In this document: piece by piece, positions 28,492-42,819 of the stretch
How the letters are laid out: every line of letters begins with the position of its first letter
Numbering within the stretch: position 1 is the stretch's first letter
From: an uncultured Bacteroidia bacterium
GTDB taxonomy: Bacteria > Bacteroidota > Bacteroidia > NS11-12g > UBA955
Assembly: GCA_943788195.1 (NCBI GenBank)
Contig: CALSPH010000001.1
Span: 59,673-123,672 of the forward strand
Direction: 5' to 3'
DNA: 64,000 bases
Made by a program: the position numbers and the translations under genes
Notes under the pieces: model-generated
What the model was told of the DNA's origin: nothing
The model's database searches: none
The model's input: only the letters and a program-made list of their open reading frames with translations

Positions 28492-29556
28492 GTGATAGCC
28501 TATATTAATTACATATACATTGCATTATTTGCAATAGCTAGTTCGTTGATTTATATCAGAATAGCGCGCTGGCTCAATATTACTGATCAACCTATTGGCC
28601 GCAGTAGCCACACGGCAAGTACGATAACCGGTCTGGGTATTATATTTCCTTTATGCGTATTATTTGCAAGTTTAATCGTAAAAACCACCCCCCCCATTGG
28701 CCCATTTTTTCTCATTGGATTATTTGCCTTAGGGATCATTTCTTTTATTGATGACGTCTTATTTGTTAAGCATTCTGTTCGGTTTGTTTTTCAGATTTTT
28801 GCGCTCATCCTCATGATCATTGAATTGCCCATGGGCGACAACTTGGTAAGTTTGATTCCAATTTATGCGGCTACTATAGTATTTGGCATTGGGGTTATCA
28901 ATGCATACAACTTTATGGATGGCATCAATGGAATGCTCGGGTTGAATCTCCTAGCCACTTTAATCTGTCTTTTTATAATTAACGATGTGCTACCGGCCAA
29001 TGGAGAAGATGGATTGCATTTCATTGATTCCCGCATTCTTTTTAGTGTTATTGCCGCAGATGTGGTGTTTTTATTTTATAATTTTCGTAAGAAGGCAAAG
29101 TCCTTTGCAGGTGACGTTGGTGCCATATGCATCGGATTTATTGTCCTTAGCTTAGTGTATCAATTGATTGTAACGACACAGAATTATTCTTATCTACTTC
29201 TATTCATTGTATTCGGCATTGATGCAGGAGTTACTGTATTTTATAAGATTATTTTGAGAGAGAATATATTCGTTCCCCATCGTGATTTTCTCTTTAAGAA
29301 ATTGGTGCATATCGCTAAAATGAAGCATTTGCATGTGAGCTCACTTTATGCTTTGGTTCAACTATTAATTGGCCTTACTACTGTTCTGTTTTTCAGAAAT
29401 ATTCCTAAAACAAGTCAGATTGCTGTTTTGTTTACTGCTATAATAGGACTTATTGCGGTTTATATTTTTTACAGAAATAAACTTACTAAAAAACGGCACG
29501 AAAAGCCCATCAATCGAAATGGTACATTAAAAACTACCTATAAAAAGATTTCTTAA
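28492..29556 (+). CDS. family-4 glycosyltransferase (MraY/WecA/WbpL-like polyprenyl-phosphate N-acetylhexosamine-1-phosphate transferase)
   Basis: The NAYNFMDGINGM motif, a polytopic membrane layout and a GTG start. Confidence 0.7.
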   Translation: MIAYINYIYIALFAIASSLIYIRIARWLNITDQPIGRSSHTASTITGLGIIFPLCVLFASLIVKTTPPIGPFFLIGLFALGIISFIDDVLFVKHSVRFVFQIFALILMIIELPMGDNLVSLIPIYAATIVFGIGVINAYNFMDGINGMLGLNLLATLICLFIINDVLPANGEDGLHFIDSRILFSVIAADVVFLFYNFRKKAKSFAGDVGAICIGFIVLSLVYQLIVTTQNYSYLLLFIVFGIDAGVTVFYKIILRENIFVPHRDFLFKKLVHIAKMKHLHVSSLYALVQLLIGLTTVLFFRNIPKTSQIAVLFTAIIGLIAVYIFYRNKLTKKRHEKPINRNGTLKTTYKKIS

Positions 29557-29693
29557 AAATCGCCTTTTTCAAGCAATATTTGTGGCTGCAATCTATTGTT
29601 ATTGGGTGCATATAATTTGAATTATTAAATAGAATTAAAGCTTGCAAAAAATCACATTCATTTTTGCATTTGATTACGTATTTTTGCCCACCT

Positions 29694-30954
29694 ATGTCAT
29701 ACCTATTTACATCCGAGTCTGTTTCAGAAGGGCACCCAGATAAAGTTTCAGATCAAATAAGTGATGCACTGATTGATCATTTTCTCGCTTTTGATAAAGA
29801 AAGCAAGGTAGCCTGCGAAACGTTAGTGACTACCGGTCAAGTTGTACTAGCTGGTGAAGTAAAGTCTAAAGCGTATTTAGATGTTCAAAATATTGCCAGA
29901 GAAGTAATCAATCGAATTGGTTATACTAAATCTGAGTACATGTTTGAAGGAAATTCTTGTGGGGTTCTTTCTGCTATCCATGAGCAAAGTCCCGATATTA
30001 ATCAAGGCGTTGACAAGAAGAAAAAAGAAGAGCAAGGTGCCGGAGACCAAGGTATGATGTTTGGTTATGCTACCAATGAGACGGAAAATTTTATGCCTTT
30101 GGCGCTTGATCTCTCCCATAGACTGCTAAAAGAACTTGCTGTTCTGCGCAGAGAAGGCAAGAAAATTAAATACCTAAGACCTGATGCGAAAAGTCAGGTA
30201 ACGCTAGAATATGACGATGACAATAATCCAATTCGAATTGATGCAATTGTTATTTCAACTCAACATGATGATTTTGATACTGAGCCAAAAATGTTGGCCA
30301 AAATCAAGAAGGACATGGTTGAAATTCTTATCCCTCGGGTTAAGAAACAATTGCCAAAACGTATCCAAAATTTATTCAATGCGGATATAAAATACCACAT
30401 TAACCCTACCGGCAAATTTGTAATTGGTGGACCGCATGGAGATACTGGACTTACTGGAAGAAAGATCATTGTAGACACATACGGAGGTAAAGGAGCGCAT
30501 GGTGGTGGTGCCTTTAGTGGGAAAGACCCTAGTAAAGTCCGATCGAAGCGCAGCATATGCCACACGCCATATAGCAAAAAACTTAGTCGCAGCTGGTTTG
30601 TGCAAAGAAGTATTGGTTCAGGTGAGTTATGCAATTGGTGTTGCTGAACCTACCAGTATAAATGTAGATACGTACGGCACAGCAAATGTGGATATGACCG
30701 ACGGTGAAATTGGGAAAAAGGTTAAGGAATTATTTGATATGCGTCCGTACTTTATTGAAAAACGCTTAAAGTTAAGAACTCCAATGTACTCTGAAACTGC
30801 GGCTTATGGCCATATGGGACGTGTAAACGAAACGGTAACCAAAGAATTTGAAAGCCCAGAAGGCAAGAAGGTTAAACTTCAAGTTGAACTCTTTACGTGG
30901 GAAAAATTAGACTACGTCATTAAAGTAAAAAAAGCGTTTAAGCTTAAGGGGTAA
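29694..30954 (+). CDS. metK: S-adenosylmethionine synthetase, interrupted in this sequence by an apparent +1 insertion near 30538-30541
   Basis: [24 protein letters not shown]...[38 protein letters not shown] matches MetK. After GKDPSKV the conserved continuation DRSAAYAARHIAKN... appears in the +1 frame (ORF 30499-30954). The GTCC there is consistent with one extra C. Confidence 0.85.
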
Positions 30955-34253: not shown

Positions 34254-34318
34254 GGTTATGGGATAAGAAATGTAACTCCGGACTCATATTAGTATATTTC
34301 TCTGTATCAATAACTTCT

Positions 34319-34636
34319 ACAAAACTATGGGAATCCAATTATTCGGATTACCAACAGTATTTGTACGACAGAATTAAGGGTTTTATTGAGAATTCTGTAA
34401 CCCCTATTGGTTATCGTCGTATTTCAAAAATCTTCAATGATGAGGGGTTAAAAACACCTCGTGGTACTTCATTCACAAACTCCAAAGTACATTCTATGTA
34501 CAAAAAGGGGTTGATTCGGGAAGAAAGAATGAATCGTGAAGATATAGTTGAGGTATCTCCTGTTACTATTGAATTGATAATACACCCAATTTTAGGTAGG
34601 ATACGTCGTAGTCCCTATGAGAAGAGATTTACCTAA
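34319..34636 (+). pseudogene. remnant of a large serine recombinase/resolvase (internal 'recombinase' domain fragment only)
   Basis: YQQYLYDRIKGFIENSVTPIGYRRISKIFNDEGLKTPRGTSFTNSKVHSMYKKGL matches the ...IA.xLNexGixTPRG..W..stV..IL segment of serine recombinases. There is no catalytic N-terminal domain, and the open frame begins inside the glmS 3' end. Confidence 0.5.
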
Positions 34637-35312
34637 AAACTCTAACCACCTTCAACCACTTCAATACTCGTTTGAACATCTCTCAGAAAATAAATTGAGA
34701 AATACTGTGATATTTTAGTCGTTTAATGTTTCAGAACCATATTTATAGATAACCTAAGTGTTCCAATCATAGGGTTCAAACACTTTTACCCCTTTATCCA
34801 ACAACTCACATCGGGGAGGGAAAGGATTAGGGAGAAGTCGGTTAGTAATCTGTAGGATTGAAATAATATCCGAACATAACGGATGAGGTTTCACCGATAG
34901 GGTTAAAAATGGTTATGGTATAAGATAGATATGGGGGATTCAAACTGACTGGTCTAATCGAAATCTATAACTGAAGAATGAGTTCATTCATTAACAGATA
35001 CTCAAATCTGTAAGGGGTTTGGTGTATCTAATTGATAACAGGTTATTAAATAATAACTGGAATGTTGAGGATTCACACTACGTATGAATCACTCAACGAT
35101 GAGATGATTCTGATGAAATCAGAACCACTCATCATAGGATGTTTAAATACTGAAAGATAAAGGAGTTAATATGAAACAAACACAAGAACAATTACATAAT
35201 GAACTAATGGATAAACTTAGTGAGTTGTATACCGTCAGCAAAAAGTGCACTAATTAGGTTAATTATTTAATATAGAGGTTTTAATAAATTTATAACCTTA
35301 AAAGAAATCTAA

Positions 35313-35660
35313 ATGACGAACAAAAAAAGCACAAGTTCATTAATCAGTGACTTAAAACGAAAGACAAGAAAGAAGTATTCATCAGAAGAAAAGATCCGCA
35401 TTATTATCCAAGGCATTCGGGGAGAGGACTCCATAGCGGAGTTATGCAGAAAAGAAGGCATAAGCCAGACCAACTATTACAAATGGAGTAAGGACTTCAT
35501 GGAAGCAGGAAAACGCAGATTAGCAGGCGATACAATGCGTGAGGCTAATACTTCTGAAGTTCAAGAGCTCAAAGGAGAGAACCATTGCTTGAAGGAGCTT
35601 GTAGCTGAACTCTCCTTAGAGGTGAGAACTTTGAAAAAAAACGTAAATGGAGACGACTAG
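35313..35660 (+). CDS. IS3-family transposase OrfA (HTH/leucine-zipper DNA-binding part)
   Basis: 115 aa and basic, with an HTH (IAELCRKEGISQTNYYKWSKDF) and a coiled-coil tail. Confidence 0.8.
   Translation: MTNKKSTSSLISDLKRKTRKKYSSEEKIRIIIQGIRGEDSIAELCRKEGISQTNYYKWSKDFMEAGKRRLAGDTMREANTSEVQELKGENHCLKELVAELSLEVRTLKKNVNGDD
35636..35642 (+). promoter_or_regulatory. programmed -1 ribosomal frameshift heptamer A_AAA_AAC at the orfA/orfB overlap
   Basis: The heptamer is correctly phased X_XXY_YYZ in the orfA frame. orfB (35675-36649) lies in the -1 frame. Translation after the slip reads ...KKRKWRRLVKKKYMHYSQ into OrfB. Confidence 0.6.
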
Positions 35661-35674
35661 TAAAGAAGAAGTAT

Positions 35675-36649
35675 ATGCATTACAGTCAGCAAGAAAAATA
35701 CGAGTTGATTCAACTTGTAGAACAATCCGATTTAGGGGTTATCCGAACCTTAAGGGAACTCAAAATTAATAAAACTACCTTCTACAACTGGTACAGCGCT
35801 TACAGCAAACAGGGCTATGAAGGTCTTGCGCGCAAGCCCAGTAAAAGACAAGGTTCATGGAACAGGATTAATGAATTAGACCGTGATAAGGTAGTTGAGA
35901 TAGCCTTAGAGAAGCCAGAACTGTCTCCTAGAGAAGTCGCTTGGTACATTACTGATACCTATAGCTATTATATCAGTGAGTCGAGTGTATATCGTATCCT
36001 AAAAAGCAATGGACTTATCTCCGTTCCATCTTTTAGAATAATGAGTGCCTCAGACAGTTTTCATGATAAAACAACACAGGTCAATCAAATGTGGCAGACT
36101 GACTTCACTTACTTCAAAATCTATGGTTGGGGGTGGTATTACCTCTCAACAGTACTGGACGATTACTCTAGGTTTATTGTTAACTGGAAGTTGTGCTCAA
36201 CCATGAAGGCAGAAGATGTTAAGAATACCTTGGATGAGGCAATATTGGCTACCGAAGTACCTGAGAGTAACAGACCTAGGCTTTTATCAGATAACGGATC
36301 TTGTTATATATCCCATGAGCTTGCAGCGTACCTTCAAGTAAAAAAGATGAAACATGTTAGAGGTAGACCCTTGCATCCTCAGACCCAAGGCAAAATAGAG
36401 CGTTATCACAGATCCATGAAAAATGTGGTAAAACTAGACAACTATTTTAGTCCTGAACAACTGGAAAGAAAACTAAAAGAGTTTGTGGAGTATTACAACT
36501 ATAAACGATACCATGAATCCTTACAAAACCTAACGCCTGCTGAGGTCTATTATGGAAAAGGGCAACTCAAACTCAAACAAAGAAATCAAACCAAAATCAA
36601 AACATTAAAAGCTAGAAAAAAACAGTATCATAAATTTAACCTAAATTAG
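35675..36649 (+). CDS. IS3-family transposase OrfB (DDE/RNase-H-like integrase catalytic domain)
   Basis: WQTDFTYF...LSDNGSCYIS...YHESLQNLTPAEVY shows D, D(35)E spacing and the conserved K/R typical of the rve integrase core. Confidence 0.85.
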   Translation: MHYSQQEKYELIQLVEQSDLGVIRTLRELKINKTTFYNWYSAYSKQGYEGLARKPSKRQGSWNRINELDRDKVVEIALEKPELSPREVAWYITDTYSYYISESSVYRILKSNGLISVPSFRIMSASDSFHDKTTQVNQMWQTDFTYFKIYGWGWYYLSTVLDDYSRFIVNWKLCSTMKAEDVKNTLDEAILATEVPESNRPRLLSDNGSCYISHELAAYLQVKKMKHVRGRPLHPQTQGKIERYHRSMKNVVKLDNYFSPEQLERKLKEFVEYYNYKRYHESLQNLTPAEVYYGKGQLKLKQRNQTKIKTLKARKKQYHKFNLN

Positions 36650-36768
36650 CACCAACTCTATCTTACGTTTTTAACTCAAAAGTGCAAATTTCGCTGAAGA
36701 CATACACAGAACCCGAGTTTGAGTTTATAAGTAGAAATTATATATTTACAAAGTTAATTCGAACAAAA

Positions 36769-37246
36769 ATGAAAAACTTAATAATTTTTTCTTTATTCGT
36801 CCTATCAAGTTGTGGCAATAAAATAGATAACAATCAGGCTCAATCGACTGAAGTAAAAAAACTATAGTCAACCACTATTACAGAATGAATACTTAGGAAA
36901 CTATCACGGAATTCAGCCAAGTTACATTATGAAAAATCAATATGGTGACGACATGATAATTGGCGGTCAAAAGGTTTCAGTTCCTTCCATTGATTTTAAG
37001 TTTCTACTAAAAGAGGATGGCATTGCTGGTTTGCAACAAACAAACCTTGATGATATTAGCAGAGTTTATTATAATGGCACTCTAAAAATACTTAATGAAG
37101 ATGTCAATTCAGTATCTGTGGAATGCTCGCTAAGCGATGGTGAATATTCTAAACCTAAATACACTTTAAAAATAAATAAATCAGATAAAACTGCTGTTTG
37201 CAAGGGAGCAAATGAACCTGAATTCAGCATAAAGAAACAACACTAA
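36769..37246 (+). pseudogene. small lipoprotein split by a frameshift inside an A7 homopolymer (36854-36860)
   Basis: The signal and lipobox MKNLIIFSLFVLSSCG ends at a stop at 36865-36867. The ORF 36929-37246 stays open upstream to 36857 in another frame. Removing one A joins them into a single ~159-aa lipoprotein. Confidence 0.45.
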
Positions 37247-37261
37247 AAACTGACGCAAATA

Positions 37262-38633
37262 ATGAAAAAAGTAATATCAAATATAAGTTTCATAATAATT
37301 GTTATAATTTTAGGTGCAACATTAAATGGTTGTAATAATCGAGAGACTAATCATCCTTTTAAATCAAAGGAAAATAAAGACCTTTTAAATCTCCCCAGCA
37401 TCACCTCAGAGCATCCCCTTTTTCAGCTTAGGATTGACTCTCTTATAAATATTAAAAGTGACACGGGTGTAATAAGCTTTAAATCCGAACTTAACTTTTT
37501 CCAAAGTGGATTCCCTCTCTACTCTCTTGACACAACAAATACACTTGAAGGGCTTTCGCGTATATACGTTTATGAGGATAACAGACTTGACTCTATAATC
37601 ATTCATCACAAATCTGGTAAAGTATTTGAAAACGTACTATATGCTTCTCAAAAATTAATAGTTACAACAGTTGGCAGTCCTCAGGGGTATGTTTTTGAAC
37701 CAGAAACCGAAGAGTATTCTTATATTCATTCTGTAGAATTTTGCTTACAACACATTGATAAAAATCTCAATTTGTCAACGGAAATATTTATCACAGATAA
37801 ATATTTTGATGGTGACAGACAAAATCCTTATTCTAACAAAGATTATTTATTTAATAACCTACCTGAATTCAATGATTTAGAGCAATTAACAAATATTGAT
37901 AATTCTAAAATTATTGATTATGCAGCAAATCATGGGGGGGGAATATTTCTATGATAGAGAATCTAATTCATATAAAAAACAACCATATAATATCAGAAAT
38001 CTTGTGCTCGAAAAAGCTACAGACAGTGTTCTCGTATTTAGAACATTAGATTATAATTACCTGACGGGGGAAGATTTCAGGAAAAGAAAAAACATATCGA
38101 TGGAATTTGCATGGAATGCATCTGCACCTGCTTGGATTGAGAGGTTCCCAGAAGATATAAGTACTACAGATATTATATTAGAATATCCTCAAGGGGCCAG
38201 CAATATGGAAGCTTACGAAAATCAACATATAAAAAAAACTGAAACTGAAATAGATTTAACAGTAGATGTAAAAGTTTATCAATCAAGTATTATAGATAGA
38301 TATAAATCTTGGATTAGTTGGAAAGAAAGAGAAAGAGAAAGAGAAAAAAGACGACAAGAAATAAACGATAATAGTAATAACTCAAATAAGTCTTCAACGA
38401 GTAACAACATAGATGGACGGTATTCTTATGAAGACCAGACTTCTACATATAGATTAACAGTTTCAAATGGAAGATGGAGTTACAGTACAGCTATAAAAAT
38501 ATCTGGAGTCGCTCAAACAGATTATTCTTCAGGAACAGAACGAAATGGAGTGTTATACAAGGGAGGAGCAAGTGTAGGAAACGTAAATGGAAATTGCGCT
38601 CAAGTAGGAAGTAGTCCACAGATGTGTAAGTAA
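37262..38633 (+). pseudogene. lipoprotein of ~457 aa split into 230-aa and 245-aa ORFs at a G8 homopolymer (37934-37941)
   Basis: The N-terminal part carries signal and lipobox LGATLNGC. The frames switch exactly at the poly-G run. The C-terminal part contains a KEREREREKRRQE tract encoded by (GAAAGA)n and an Asn/Ser-rich region. Confidence 0.45.
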
Positions 38634-38836
38634 AAAAAACATATCCCCAAGAAGGCATTAGAATTACTCTTAAAACTATCTGAATTTGCTTTACCTAAGC
38701 TCAGAGCTATAGAGGTTAATAATGAGTCAGAGGAGGCTAAGCATACCTCATTAGATATTAATATAATTGATACTGGGGTGCCTTTTGCGAGTTGTGAGGC
38801 GGATGTGGTTGATTAACCTTCCATTTATTAGCATCT

Positions 38837-39920
38837 TTATATTTTAAGCACCCTAAAGTGCTGTTTAAATTCATCTCCGATGCTGATGAAATACATTCCA
38901 TCTGGCAGACCTTTTAGATTTATTTCTGTGTCTTCTCCTTCAATCACATCAGACAATACTTCTACTCCTGCGCTAGTGTATATTGTAATGTTTTGTCGTA
39001 TTAAGTTAGTTGATGCTTTAATACGTATTCTACTTGTAGTAGGATTGGGATAAATCGTAAACTCAATATTAGGATACTTATAAATACTGGCACTATTACT
39101 TGTATCCACCAATGTCGGCATCCAAGTCAAGCCAATACTATCACCCCACAGATATTCAGCTAATTCAGGATGGTCAATAAAAGGATTGCGGTTGTGCTGG
39201 TAAAAGCTATCGATGATGTTATTCCTATTACGTTCCCAGTTGCTAACTGTATCAATCCTATTCCAATGAAGGAGAGTGATTTAAGCGAGCTTGTAAGGGA
39301 CTTTGGTCAGCATTATTAAGTAATGTATTAGTCAACTCTAAATCAGGCTCAGAGCCTTCTCCTTCGTATCTGACAGCCATATAAAATATCATTCTAGCTA
39401 CATCTCCTTTGACTGCGTCAGGTGGTTCAAATGTCCATAAATCAGCATCACGTTTAGACCCTGTATTAAAGCCATTATCTATTACATCTACACAAGTAAT
39501 GCAAGTGTCAAAATTTCTATTATTCCTTGTGGAGTTGACACTAACATCGCAAGGTCTTAGGTGATGTACATCTGTTCCTGCACCATTGCTTGTACCAAAG
39601 TCTCCTCTAGATTTTGCCCAAACGTGTTCCCGACTCCAGCCAGCAGCACTGTTGTATTCTTGTGCAGCATCTACACTTCTCCCTGAATATAGTAGGATTA
39701 CATTATTTGCATTTGCTGTATCTCTATCCGTATGCTTTAGTATGTCCCACACATCTGTCGATGATGAGGTATAAGGGAACTCTGTATGATTTTTGATTAT
39801 TTGGTTCAGTTCATACTTCAATGAATCATCAGACTTTTTATGAGCAGATAGATAGTAAGTACTGTCCTGTGCAGAAAGCAGGTTTGAGATAAGGAGTAAA
39901 GCGAATACAATAAATTTCAA
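38837..39920 (-). pseudogene. secreted endonuclease I-family DNase with a T9SS type-A C-terminal sorting domain, disrupted by a frameshift near 39283-39310
   Basis: The upstream ORF (39258-39920) has a signal peptide and EndA/NucM motifs (EHVWAKSRG, DVHHLRPCDVSVNSTRNNRNFD, MIFYMAVRYEG). The domain continues in another frame (TLLHWNRIDTVSNWERNRNNIIDSFYQHNRNPFIDHPELAEYLWG) and runs into a Por_Secre_tail CTD that ends VLKI. Confidence 0.65.
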
Positions 39921-40015
39921 GATGTAAATATATTATTAAATCTATTCTATTACCAATTGACTAGCTGACTAAACGAATTTAAACCCTAAAAGATTACACT
40001 AATATCCAAAGATGG

Positions 40016-40540
40016 GTGTTTAAATTTTCACCATTTGTGGAATCAAACATGAACAAACGGAAGAATGTAGTTGGTAATAGTTGGAGAATGGACGAGACCT
40101 ACATCAAGGTAGCAGGTAAGGACAGATACTTATATCGAGCTGTAGATAAGCAAGGAAATACGGTTGACTTCCTGCTAACTAAACGGAGAATGAAGGGGTC
40201 AGCACAGAAGTTTCTGAACAAAGCCATAGGCAACAATGGAAAACCAAGACTGATCAATATTGATAAAAGTGGAGCAAATACACAGGCCATACGTATTGTG
40301 AATCAATATAGCTTGACCTTCAAGAAAATCAGAATCAGGCGAGTTAAGTATTTAAACAATATTGTTGAGCAAGACCATCGGACGATTAAACGACGGATAG
40401 CAATAACTACAGGATTCAAGGAGTTCGAATCCGCTCAAAGAACACTAGCAGGAATAGAAATCATAAACATCATTAGAAAGAATCAAATAGTAAATCCGAG
40501 GAGAAGTTGGTTTGCAACCTTTAAGTCTTTGGCTGCTTAA
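40016..40540 (+). pseudogene. IS6-family (IS26-like) transposase remnant; the N-terminal ~60 aa are missing
   Basis: WRMDETYIKVAGKDRYLYRAVDKQGNTVDFLLTKRR...INIDKSGANTQA...EQDHRTIKRR aligns with the IS6/IS26 Tnp DDE core. No IS6 inverted repeats were identified. Confidence 0.65.
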
Positions 40541-40947
40541 TGAAATGATAAATCAGCTACTTTTGGAAACCAATGGGATTAATGCGACAGAACCAAAAAA
40601 CTTTCCTTTGTGTGAAATTAAAATCCATTGCAGACAAGTATCAAACAAAGTTAACTAGACCAGCTTTTTTTAATAAAGACTTTAACTTAAAGTGGTGATG
40701 CGCCAAGTTCCTCGAAATCTTCACGTTTAATCGAATTGATAATGGATAAATCATTTACTTTTAGTAAAACTGACCTAACTCCATTGCCGTTTTTATTGTT
40801 GATGGTAAAATACAATTTGAGTTTAGATTTGGTTTGTTTGATTTTCTCTGGAGGTAATTTTGTATACCGTCAGCAAAAAGTGCACTAATTAGGTTAATTA
40901 TTTAATATAGAGGTTTTAATAAATTTATAACCTTAAAAGAAATCTAA

Positions 40948-41295
40948 ATGACGAACAAAAAAAGCACAAGTTCATTAATCAGTGACTTAAAACGAAAGAC
41001 AAGAAAGAAGTATTCATCAGAAGAAAAGATCCGCATTATTATCCAAGGCATTCGGGGAGAGGACTCCATAGCGGAGTTATGCAGAAAAGAAGGCATAAGC
41101 CAGACCAACTATTACAAATGGAGTAAGGACTTCATGGAAGCAGGAAAACGCAGATTAGCAGGCGATACAATGCGTGAGGCTAATACTTCTGAAGTTCAAG
41201 AGCTCAAAGGAGAGAACCATTGCTTGAAGGAGCTTGTAGCTGAACTCTCCTTAGAGGTGAGAACTTTGAAAAAAAACGTAAATGGAGACGACTAG
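40948..41295 (+). CDS. IS3-family transposase OrfA (copy 2)
   Basis: Identical to the 35313-35660 protein. Confidence 0.8.
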   Translation: MTNKKSTSSLISDLKRKTRKKYSSEEKIRIIIQGIRGEDSIAELCRKEGISQTNYYKWSKDFMEAGKRRLAGDTMREANTSEVQELKGENHCLKELVAELSLEVRTLKKNVNGDD

Positions 41296-41309
41296 TAAAG
41301 AAGAAGTAT

Positions 41310-42284
41310 ATGCATTACAGTCAGCAAGAAAAATACGAGTTGATTCAACTTGTAGAACAATCCGATTTAGGGGTTATCCGAACCTTAAGGGAACTCAAAA
41401 TTAATAAAACTACCTTCTACAACTGGTACAGCGCTTACAGCAAACAGGGCTATGAAGGTCTTGCGCGCAAGCCCAGTAAAAGACAAGGTTCATGGAACAG
41501 GATTAATGAATTAGACCGTGATAAGGTAGTTGAGATAGCCTTAGAGAAGCCAGAACTGTCTCCTAGAGAAGTCGCTTGGTACATTACTGATACCTATAGC
41601 TATTATATCAGTGAGTCGAGTGTATATCGTATCCTAAAAAGCAATGGACTTATCTCCGTTCCATCTTTTAGAATAATGAGTGCCTCAGACAGTTTTCATG
41701 ATAAAACAACACAGGTCAATCAAATGTGGCAGACTGACTTCACTTACTTCAAAATCTATGGTTGGGGGTGGTATTACCTCTCAACAGTACTGGACGATTA
41801 CTCTAGGTTTATTGTTAACTGGAAGTTGTGCTCAACCATGAAGGCAGAAGATGTTAAGAATACCTTGGATGAGGCAATATTGGCTACCGAAGTACCTGAG
41901 AGTAACAGACCTAGGCTTTTATCAGATAACGGATCTTGTTATATATCCCATGAGCTTGCAGCGTACCTTCAAGTAAAAAAGATGAAACATGTTAGAGGTA
42001 GACCCTTGCATCCTCAGACCCAAGGCAAAATAGAGCGTTATCACAGATCCATGAAAAATGTGGTAAAACTAGACAACTATTTTAGTCCTGAACAACTGGA
42101 AAGAAAACTAAAAGAGTTTGTGGAGTATTACAACTATAAACGATACCATGAATCCTTACAAAACCTAACGCCTGCTGAGGTCTATTATGGAAAAGGGCAA
42201 CTCAAACTCAAACAAAGAAATCAAACCAAAATCAAAACATTAAAAGCTAGAAAAAAACAGTATCATAAATTTAACCTAAATTAG
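41310..42284 (+). CDS. IS3-family transposase OrfB (copy 2)
   Basis: Identical to the 35675-36649 protein. Confidence 0.85.
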   Translation: MHYSQQEKYELIQLVEQSDLGVIRTLRELKINKTTFYNWYSAYSKQGYEGLARKPSKRQGSWNRINELDRDKVVEIALEKPELSPREVAWYITDTYSYYISESSVYRILKSNGLISVPSFRIMSASDSFHDKTTQVNQMWQTDFTYFKIYGWGWYYLSTVLDDYSRFIVNWKLCSTMKAEDVKNTLDEAILATEVPESNRPRLLSDNGSCYISHELAAYLQVKKMKHVRGRPLHPQTQGKIERYHRSMKNVVKLDNYFSPEQLERKLKEFVEYYNYKRYHESLQNLTPAEVYYGKGQLKLKQRNQTKIKTLKARKKQYHKFNLN

Positions 42285-42342
42285 CACCAACTCTATCTTA
42301 CGTTTTTAACTCAAAAGTGCAAATTTCGCTGAAGACATACAC

Positions 42343-42819
42343 TCTGGTGATCAAAATGATTATGTTGCTGTTTCCATGGAACACTGGGGGACGAATTTAA
42401 ATCGTTATATCAACAAAAAAACTACCATCGGCTTAGCTATAGAGTCTGTTGAAGACAGTACCAAAATGAACATTAAGGTTTTTGTACGCGGGAATGGGTT
42501 TGACAACTCTAAATCCTATAAATTGACCGTTTATATTATTGAGGACAATATTAGTACAGACAATCAAGTTGGAAAACCAGCAGGTTTCAAACATCAAATG
42601 GTGTTAAGAGGCAGTCTTACCAATGCGATTGGGGACGACATTAAGTTAAAAGAAAATGTGACCTTGGAAAAGGAATACTCGTTTAGTTTAAGCGGTTCCT
42701 TTGTTGTAGACAACCTAAAAATATTGGCCTTTGTAAATACAGTTGGTGGAACAACATCTGATCGATTAATTCATAACGCACAACAAGTAAAGGCAGGTAA
42801 AACAGCTAATTGGGATTAA
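42343..42819 (+). pseudogene. C-terminal portion of an Omp28-related outer-membrane lipoprotein, truncated at its 5' end by IS3 copy 2
   Basis: The reading frame is open right from the IS boundary (SGDQNDYVAVSMEHWG...). LTVYIIEDNI...HQMVLRG resembles the Omp28 family. No signal peptide or start remains. Confidence 0.4.

What the first reader, a model, noticed from the sequence alone, without database searches (positions are those of the whole stretch)
37925..37950. G8 homopolymer at the exact junction of two overlapping ORFs: possible phase-variable lipoprotein, or an indel error
ORFs 37262-37954 and 37896-38633 change frame precisely within GGGGGGGG (37934-37941). A 1-nt length change fuses them into a ~457-aa lipoprotein. 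Poly-G/C tracts of 8 or more are classical slipped-strand contingency switches for surface proteins. The downstream part also contains a (GAAAGA)n microsatellite (~38326-38360) encoding ERERERE.
Basis: seen in the sequence. Interest (0 to 1): 0.5.

Follow-up and report, generated by a model that had tools for sequence, protein, structure and literature searches.

The report
One-base assembly error splitting a lipoprotein gene
The run of eight G's that seems to cut a surface-lipoprotein gene in two is most likely a one-base over-call in a long-read metagenome assembly: twelve other assemblies of the same or related marine bacteria carry seven G's and one intact gene, so there is probably no genetic switch here.

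Summary
GGGGGGGG lies at 37934-37941, the two ORFs change frame inside it, and removing one G gives a single 456-aa predicted lipoprotein.

The phase-variation reading is not supported. All 12 distinct contigs found elsewhere, each from a different sample and spanning three lineages, carry G7 and an intact gene. Two of them differ from the window by only 1 and 4 substitutions. A 38%-identical homologue is also a single ORF and has no G tract.

The window carries other private one-base insertions:
- +C at 30539, which breaks metK, a housekeeping gene intact in 10 other assemblies.
- A6 to A7 at 36855, which breaks the upstream 158-aa gene.
- +G at 39278, which breaks the endonuclease I gene.

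Long-read-style contigs of the same population show 61 private indels in 384 kb. All 61 are insertions, and 57 of them extend a run. Short-read-style contigs show none in 176 kb. A true C8 tract at 28688 is invariant across assemblies.

Best explanation: a consensus insertion error in a strain-variable, IS3-flanked island downstream of glmS (confidence about 0.85). The rivals are a real recent frameshift in this strain (about 0.09) and true phase variation (about 0.04). Read pile-ups would decide between them. The finding is ordinary and of low interest.

The parts
37934..37941 (+). G8 homopolymer as assembled. The inferred true length is G7, read as CAT GGG GGG GAA = H-G-G-E.
   Evidence: Searches give the sequence. 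Searches show G7 in 12 distinct contigs from 12 samples and G8 only in the window.
37262..38633 (+). A single gene for a 456-aa predicted lipoprotein of unknown function. In the window it appears as two ORFs (37262-37954 and 37896-38633) because of the extra G.
   Evidence: One search shows the G7 fusion. Searches show that P0005 is identical to the G7 fusion, P0001 is nearly identical (100% in the table; V for F at one residue), P0002 is 91% and P0003 is 38% identical, and all four are single ORFs. Searches find no Pfam, NCBIfam or PDB relative.
36769..37246 (+). Upstream gene for a small (158-aa) predicted lipoprotein. In the window it is split into ORFs of 61 and 105 aa by a private A7 (A6 elsewhere) at 36855-36861.
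   Evidence: Searches show A6 in 6 distinct contigs. The gene is called as 158 aa in L001, L010 and L014.
38632..38639 (+). A8 run at and after the stop codon of the lipoprotein gene. It is A7 in six other contigs and A8 also in L015. It has no coding consequence.
38837..39920 (-). Endonuclease I gene with a T9SS C-terminal sorting domain. In the window it is split (97 + 220 aa) by a window-only extra G at 39278.
   Evidence: One search gives the Pfam hits on the two pieces. Searches show it intact at 360 aa in L010. Searches show the +G only in the window.
29664..30954 (+). metK (S-adenosylmethionine synthetase), used as an internal control. In the window it is split by a private extra C at 30539-30540 (CC versus C).
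   Evidence: One search shows the Pfam C-terminal domain divided between the two ORFs. Searches show metK intact at 429 aa, with a single C at this site, in 10 other assemblies.
35225..36707 (+). IS3-family insertion sequence, left copy. It bounds the island that holds the lipoprotein gene.
   Evidence: It is 1,483 bp and identical to the right copy.
40860..42342 (+). IS3-family insertion sequence, right copy, a direct repeat of the left one.
   Evidence: 0 mismatches in 1,483 bp.
38324..38346 (+). (AGAAAG) x 3.8 hexanucleotide repeat encoding KEREREREK. The 91%-identical lineage has one unit fewer, in frame.
28688..28695 (+). C8 tract, in frame, inside a Glycos_transf_4 gene (28492-29556). 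It serves as a control for a genuine 8-base G/C run.
   Evidence: One search shows C8 in the window and in all 9 other assemblies that cover it.

Best explanation
The eighth G is a false one-base insertion in the consensus of a long-read metagenome assembly. The real sequence is G7 and the real gene is one 456-aa lipoprotein gene. The steps are as follows.

(1) Shown: the gene lies in a 4.1-kb island between two identical IS3 copies, just downstream of glmS. Co-occurring strains of this population carry at least three different contents at this site.

(2) Inferred: because only some of the strains carry this version of the island, fewer reads supported the consensus here, so errors survived.

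(3) Shown: long-read-style contigs of this population carry sporadic, patchy one-base insertions that mostly lengthen an existing run. Short-read-style contigs carry none.

(4) Shown: the window carries five such private or nearly private insertions within about 9 kb and none in the other 43 kb that could be compared. One of the five breaks metK.

The underlying G7 tract simply encodes Gly-Gly in a variable linker of a fast-evolving surface protein.
For: - G7 is present in 12 distinct contigs from 12 samples, spanning three lineages; G8 is only in the window.
- P0005, on four contigs (L010-L013), is residue-for-residue the G7 fusion of the window's own sequence.
- L013 and L012 differ from the window by 1 substitution in 1,468 bp and 4 in 2,006 bp, yet lack the extra G.
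- The downstream frame has no further lesion, so there is no sign of an old pseudogene.
- The window's other private insertions are +C at 30539 in metK (absent in 10 other assemblies, where metK is intact at 429 aa), A6 to A7 at 36855, and +G at 39278. A7 to A8 at 38632 is shared only with L015.
- Census: 61 private indel columns in 383.8 kb of long-read-style contigs. All 61 are insertions and 57 extend a run of the same base. There are 0 in 175.7 kb of SPAdes, Logan and NCBI-MAG contigs.
- Other long contigs break the same lipoprotein gene at different places: L015 at a T5 run (37419) and L014 by insertions at 37372 and 37386.
- The island is strain-variable.
- Published background: consensus sequences of long-read assemblies keep homopolymer indels that cause frameshift errors in gene calling, especially at low coverage (PMC9262707).
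Against: - No reads were available, so the error is inferred and not seen.
- The sequencing platform of the source contig is not known. 'Long-read-style' is inferred from contig names, contig lengths (up to 0.88 Mb, and 1.79 Mb for the source contig) and resolved identical IS copies.
- Outside 30.5-39.3 kb the window is clean: 0 private indels in about 43 kb. The errors would therefore have to be local.
- From general knowledge of slippage rates, a G7 run is long enough for real slippage at a rate comparable to the total substitution rate of a 1.4-kb gene. A real recent G7 to G8 mutation is therefore not implausible on its own.
- Inside the island, L015 shows private deletions as well as insertions, so the insertions-only signature is not universal.
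Confidence: 0.85

Rival explanations
1. This is a real, recent frameshift mutation. The strain that gave the 1.79-Mb contig gained one G by replication slippage, which inactivated the lipoprotein gene. This would be part of the decay of an IS-flanked accessory island in which neighbouring genes are also broken.
For: Three consecutive island genes are broken in the window. The island is accessory and absent from other strains. The gene evolves fast, with dN/dS about 0.7 against the 91% lineage on small counts, so selection may be weak. G7 runs are slippage-prone (general knowledge). The window is otherwise free of private indels over about 43 kb.
Against: The same contig carries a private +1 insertion in metK, which is hard to accept as real in a free-living bacterium and is absent from 10 other assemblies. 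Three or four independent indels against only 1-4 substitutions in about 2 kb is the reverse of the usual ratio. One of them (39278) is not in a homopolymer. All are insertions, which matches the error signature of the long-read-style contigs. No other contig shares G8.
Confidence: 0.09
2. This is a true phase-variable (contingency) locus. The G tract switches reversibly between G7 (ON) and G8 (OFF) by slipped-strand mispairing, which varies the expression of a surface lipoprotein. The window would have captured an OFF population.
For: A G7/G8 tract lies inside the coding region of a predicted surface lipoprotein, in a flexible island. The tract is kept as GGG GGG G in lineages about 6% diverged, although GGG is the rarest Gly codon here at 70 of 421. 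One assembly differs in length.
Against: 12 of 12 other consensus sequences are G7, with no G6, G8 or G9. The 38% homologue has no Gly-Gly and no tract at that position. The only true 8-base G/C run nearby is invariant. G/C runs of 7 or more occur at about the Markov expectation, roughly 1.3 each with 1 observed each. The co-occurring private insertions in metK and in the neighbouring genes point to a technical cause. Conservation over 6% divergence needs no selection.
Confidence: 0.04
3. This is programmed recoding. The G8 would be a site of +1 ribosomal frameshifting or transcriptional slippage, so the full-length protein is made from the split gene.
For: The frames meet exactly in a homopolymer. 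The same window holds a genuine recoding-type site, an A8 in the IS3 orfA/orfB overlap.
Against: All relatives encode the protein in one frame with G7, so there is no conserved need for recoding. Nothing else at the site suggests a frameshift signal.
Confidence: 0.01

Closest known systems
Homopolymer indel errors in long-read (meta)genome assemblies that fragment gene calls (for example Sereika et al. 2022, PMC9262707)
   Same: A single-base length error in a homopolymer splits one gene into two overlapping ORFs. It is absent from short-read-style assemblies of the same population. Other genes on the same contig, including a housekeeping gene, are affected in the same way. The errors are patchy.
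   Different: The platform and coverage of this contig are unknown. Here the errors are insertions, whereas nanopore R9 errors are usually described as both insertions and deletions. The contig is otherwise very clean.
Simple-sequence contingency loci: poly-G/C tracts in surface-structure genes of Campylobacter, Neisseria and Haemophilus (my own knowledge)
   Same: A poly-G tract lies within the reading frame of a predicted surface protein, and a 1-nt change switches the frame.
   Different: Known loci show tract-length variation between and within strains, usually have tracts of 8 or more, and occur as many loci per genome. Here the tract is G7 in every other sequence, it is absent from the distant homologue, and G/C runs are not enriched.
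IS3-family programmed -1 frameshift (A-rich slippery run between orfA and orfB)
   Same: A homopolymer sits at the junction of two overlapping ORFs. A real example lies 2.3 kb upstream in this window (A8 at 35634-35641).
   Different: The IS3 site is identical in both copies, and the same 115-aa orfA and 324-aa orfB calls appear in the other assemblies that carry the element. The two frames there are a conserved feature of the family. The G8 junction is unique to one assembly.

Membership tests
Phase-variable simple-sequence contingency locus | Tract length differs among strains or populations | tested here: not met
   G7 in 12 distinct contigs from 12 samples, including an unbiased G6-G10 pattern scan of JGI metagenomes. 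G8 is only in the window. Consensus sequences cannot show minority variants.
Phase-variable simple-sequence contingency locus | The length change switches the reading frame of a functional gene between ON and OFF | tested here: met
   G7 and G10 give a 456/457-aa ORF. G8 and G9 truncate it.
Phase-variable simple-sequence contingency locus | The tract is maintained in the family, or such tracts are over-represented in the genome | tested here: not met
   There is no tract in the 38% homologue. G and C runs of 7 or more occur at about the Markov expectation. The C8 at 28688 is invariant.
Phase-variable simple-sequence contingency locus | Mixed tract lengths within one population (reads or colonies) | not testable with these tools
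   No reads are available.
Long-read assembly homopolymer or indel error | The indel is private to one assembly and absent from independent assemblies of the same population | tested here: met
Long-read assembly homopolymer or indel error | The same assembly shows further frameshifts in genes expected to be intact | tested here: met
   metK, the 158-aa gene and the endonuclease I gene are each broken by a window-private +1 insertion.
Long-read assembly homopolymer or indel error | Assemblies of the same type show the same error signature and short-read assemblies do not | tested here: met
   61 private insertions in 383.8 kb against 0 in 175.7 kb. The assembly type was inferred from contig names and lengths, not from metadata.
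Long-read assembly homopolymer or indel error | Reads do not support the consensus base | not testable with these tools
   No reads are available. The window's own record could not be retrieved.
Bacterial lipoprotein | N-terminal signal peptide ending in a lipobox cysteine | tested here: inconclusive
   MKKVISNISFIIIVIILGATLNGC was judged by eye only. The Cys is kept in the close homologues, and the distant homologue has ...FTAC. No predictor was run.

The most novel reading that the evidence does not exclude
The G7 tract is a genuine slippage-prone contingency switch in a surface lipoprotein of an uncultured, free-living marine Bacteroidia. The window's contig would have captured a population in which the OFF (G8) state was the majority. 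That would make it a simple-sequence phase-variable locus in a lineage and habitat where, as far as I know, few such switches have been described.
Probability: 0.04. Interest if true: 0.35.

Novelty: not a real feature. Interest (0 to 1): 0.07.

Why it matters
As a biological finding it matters little. The gene is an ordinary, intact, fast-evolving lipoprotein gene of unknown function in a mobile-element-rich island.

It matters more as a quality flag. The source contig is a 1.79-Mb, apparently complete, metagenome-assembled chromosome. It contains false one-base insertions that fragment at least four genes in this window, including metK. Pseudogene counts, 'split gene' calls and homopolymer-based phase-variation predictions on this genome are therefore unreliable until it is polished.

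Tried and rejected
- A scan of GTDB species-representative genomes with the fused protein found no relative. A second scan with GcvP gave only relatives of 69% identity or less, from assorted Bacteroidota, so the organism could be named no more closely than an uncultured marine Bacteroidia.
- Looking up the window's own split products to obtain the source record and sample failed.
- AlphaFold2 on a 6-sequence alignment gave mean pLDDT 33.9 and pTM 0.24. That is unusable, so no fold search was run.
- Pfam, NCBIfam and a PDB profile search found nothing for the lipoprotein. Its function stays unknown.
- Literature searches for the run, assembly and MAG accessions found no paper, so the sequencing platform could not be confirmed.
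- Programmed frameshifting was considered and rejected because every relative is in frame with G7.
- An old pseudogene was rejected because the downstream frame is 100% identical to the intact protein P0005.
- A strict 'insertions only' error signature had to be softened, because L015 also has private deletions inside the island.

Full report
**Observation**

The sequence holds GGGGGGGG at 37934-37941. ORF 37262-37954 (230 aa) and ORF 37896-38633 (245 aa) overlap across it, and the second is in the +1 frame. Removing one G or adding two gives a single ORF of 456 or 457 aa. Adding one G does not. The product starts MKKVISNISFIIIVIILGATLNGC, which reads as a lipoprotein signal peptide by eye.

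This is the only G run of 8 or more in the window. Between 0.08 and 0.29 such runs are expected.

**Are the two ORFs one gene?**

A search of 5.8 billion proteins with the G7 fusion found only three clusters, and all are full-length single proteins:
- P0001: 456 aa, listed at 100% identity.
- P0002: 458 aa, 91% identity.
- P0003: 397 aa, 38% identity, from a Bacteroidia MAG.

Cluster members include P0005, which is residue-for-residue the G7 fusion of the window's own sequence. It is found on four contigs. The distant P0003 spans both halves in one frame and has neither Gly-Gly nor a G tract at the junction. The junction lies in a variable, indel-rich linker. So this is one gene.

**Tract length elsewhere**

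Twelve distinct contigs from twelve samples (L001-L005, L008, L010-L015) all carry G7. They belong to three lineages that are 94-100% identical in DNA to the window. Three of them (L003, L004, L008) also came up in a gene-call-independent pattern scan of JGI metagenomes that would have accepted G6 to G10. L013 and L012 differ from the window by only 1 substitution in 1,468 bp and 4 in 2,006 bp, and they lack the extra G. Only the window has G8.

**Other window-private indels**

Against the same-population contigs, the window's indel differences in and around the gene are single-base insertions in the window:
- A6 to A7 at 36855. This splits the upstream 158-aa gene into ORFs of 61 and 105 aa.
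- G7 to G8 at 37934.
- A7 to A8 at 38632. This one is shared with L015.
- +G at 39278. This splits an endonuclease I / T9SS gene that is intact at 360 aa in L010.

Further upstream, metK is split in the window (29664-30647 plus 30499-30954), with the Pfam C-terminal domain divided between the pieces. The cause is a private extra C at 30539. That C is absent from 10 other assemblies, where metK is an intact 429-aa gene. A frameshifted metK in a free-living bacterium is not credible as biology, so this contig does contain false insertions.

**Error signature of the data set**

I aligned the window with 29 further loci of the same population over 4.0-34.3 kb and 43.9-64.0 kb and counted the indels private to one sequence.

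| Sequence class | kb compared | Private indel columns |
|---|---|---|
| Long-read-style contigs ('contig_N', up to 0.88 Mb) | 383.8 | 61, all insertions; 57 extend a run of the same base |
| Short-read-style contigs (SPAdes NODE_, Logan, one NCBI MAG) | 175.7 | 0 |
| Window | 54.9 | 1 (the metK insertion) |

In the long-read-style contigs the private indels are patchy: one contig holds 32. Gene calls tell the same story. Each long contig has its own set of split genes and the short-read contigs have none. The lipoprotein gene itself is broken at other positions in two other long contigs:
- L015 has T5 to T4 at 37419.
- L014 has insertions at 37372 and 37386.

There is a caveat. Inside the island, L015 shows private deletions as well as insertions. 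The assembly type was also inferred from contig names and sizes, not from metadata.

**Why errors would cluster here**

The gene sits in a 4.1-kb segment between two identical, direct 1,483-bp IS3 copies (35225-36707 and 40860-42342), just downstream of glmS. Different assemblies of the population carry at least three different contents at this site:
- a serine recombinase only;
- a recombinase plus resolvases, a restriction-endonuclease-like gene and IS3 copies;
- the lipoprotein island seen in the window.

SNP density against L010 is about 3-4% in 38.5-40.5 kb and close to zero in the flanks. I infer, but could not test, that only part of the read depth supported this island variant, which left consensus errors uncorrected. 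It is well documented that long-read consensus sequences keep homopolymer indels that fragment gene calls, especially at low coverage (PMC9262707).

**Phase variation tested**

- A length change does switch the frame, so that defining feature is met.
- No length polymorphism was found among 12 consensus sequences.
- The tract is not a family feature.
- The genuine C8 at 28688-28695, in frame in a Glycos_transf_4 gene, is C8 in all nine other assemblies.
- G and C runs of 7 or more occur about as often as a first-order Markov model predicts.
- GGG is the rarest Gly codon (70 of 421). However, keeping GGG GGG over 6% divergence needs no selection.

The gene evolves fast (dN/dS about 0.7, on small counts), as surface proteins in flexible islands often do. 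Minority variants cannot be excluded without reads.

**Verdict**

- Most likely (0.85): the G8 is an insertion-type consensus error, and the real locus is an intact G7 lipoprotein gene of unknown function.
- A real, very recent frameshift in this strain (0.09) remains possible, because G7 runs do slip and the rest of the window is clean.
- Phase variation (0.04) and programmed recoding (0.01) are unlikely.

The feature as flagged is not real biology. Its practical value is as a warning about indel errors in this otherwise contiguous genome.

Noticed in passing
window 29664-30954 (extra C at 30539-30540): metK (S-adenosylmethionine synthetase) is split into two overlapping ORFs by a window-private one-base insertion. 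It is intact at 429 aa in 10 other assemblies of the same population. This is almost certainly an assembly error.
   Followed up: yes
window 35225-36707 and 40860-42342: Two identical 1,483-bp direct copies of an IS3-family element. The orfA/orfB overlap holds TTGAAAAAAAACG (A8 at 35634-35641 and 41269-41276), with orfB in the -1 frame. This is the classical IS3 programmed -1 frameshift arrangement. The other assemblies that carry the element give the same orfA and orfB calls.
   Followed up: partly
window 34254-42375; loci L036-L043: The site downstream of glmS is a hypervariable island. Same-population assemblies carry one of three contents here: only a large serine recombinase; a recombinase plus resolvases, an RE_endonuc gene, an SH3 protein and several IS3 copies; or the IS3-flanked lipoprotein / endonuclease I island seen in the window.
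   Followed up: partly
window 38837-39920 (-), extra G at 39278: The endonuclease I gene with a T9SS C-terminal sorting domain is split in the window. It is intact at 360 aa in L010 and broken at different places in L011 and L015. This stretch also shows 3-4% SNP divergence between assemblies.
   Followed up: partly
window 36769-37246 (A7 at 36855-36861): A small 158-aa predicted lipoprotein gene directly upstream is split by a window-private A6 to A7 change. The L002-type loci carry a second copy of this gene about 1 kb downstream of the big lipoprotein gene.
   Followed up: partly
window 28688-28695: A C8 run lies in frame in a Glycos_transf_4 (WecA/MraY-like) membrane protein gene. It has the same length in all 9 other assemblies, so there is no sign of instability.
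   Followed up: yes
window 38324-38346; L002 2430-2500: The hexanucleotide repeat (AGAAAG) x 3.8 encodes KEREREREK. The 91%-identical lineage has exactly one unit fewer, in frame. This is a genuine small slippage polymorphism.
   Followed up: yes
protein P0004 (477 aa, 12 contigs); locus L014: This variant of the lipoprotein has an N-terminus (MKNLIIFSLFVLSSCGNKIDNNQAQSTEVK...) that matches the signal peptide of the upstream 158-aa gene. It looks like a natural deletion or fusion of the two neighbouring genes. It also carries a 14-residue insertion.
   Followed up: no
window 40016-40540: An IS6-family (DDE_Tnp_IS240) transposase fragment of 174 aa lies inside the island, next to the right-hand IS3 copy.
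   Followed up: no
loci L031, L032, L039 (sample name masked as xxxxxxxxxxx): One sample yields several separate contigs that cover the same genome region with different island contents. This suggests co-assembled strain variants in one sample. It may be the window's own sample, but that could not be verified.
   Followed up: no
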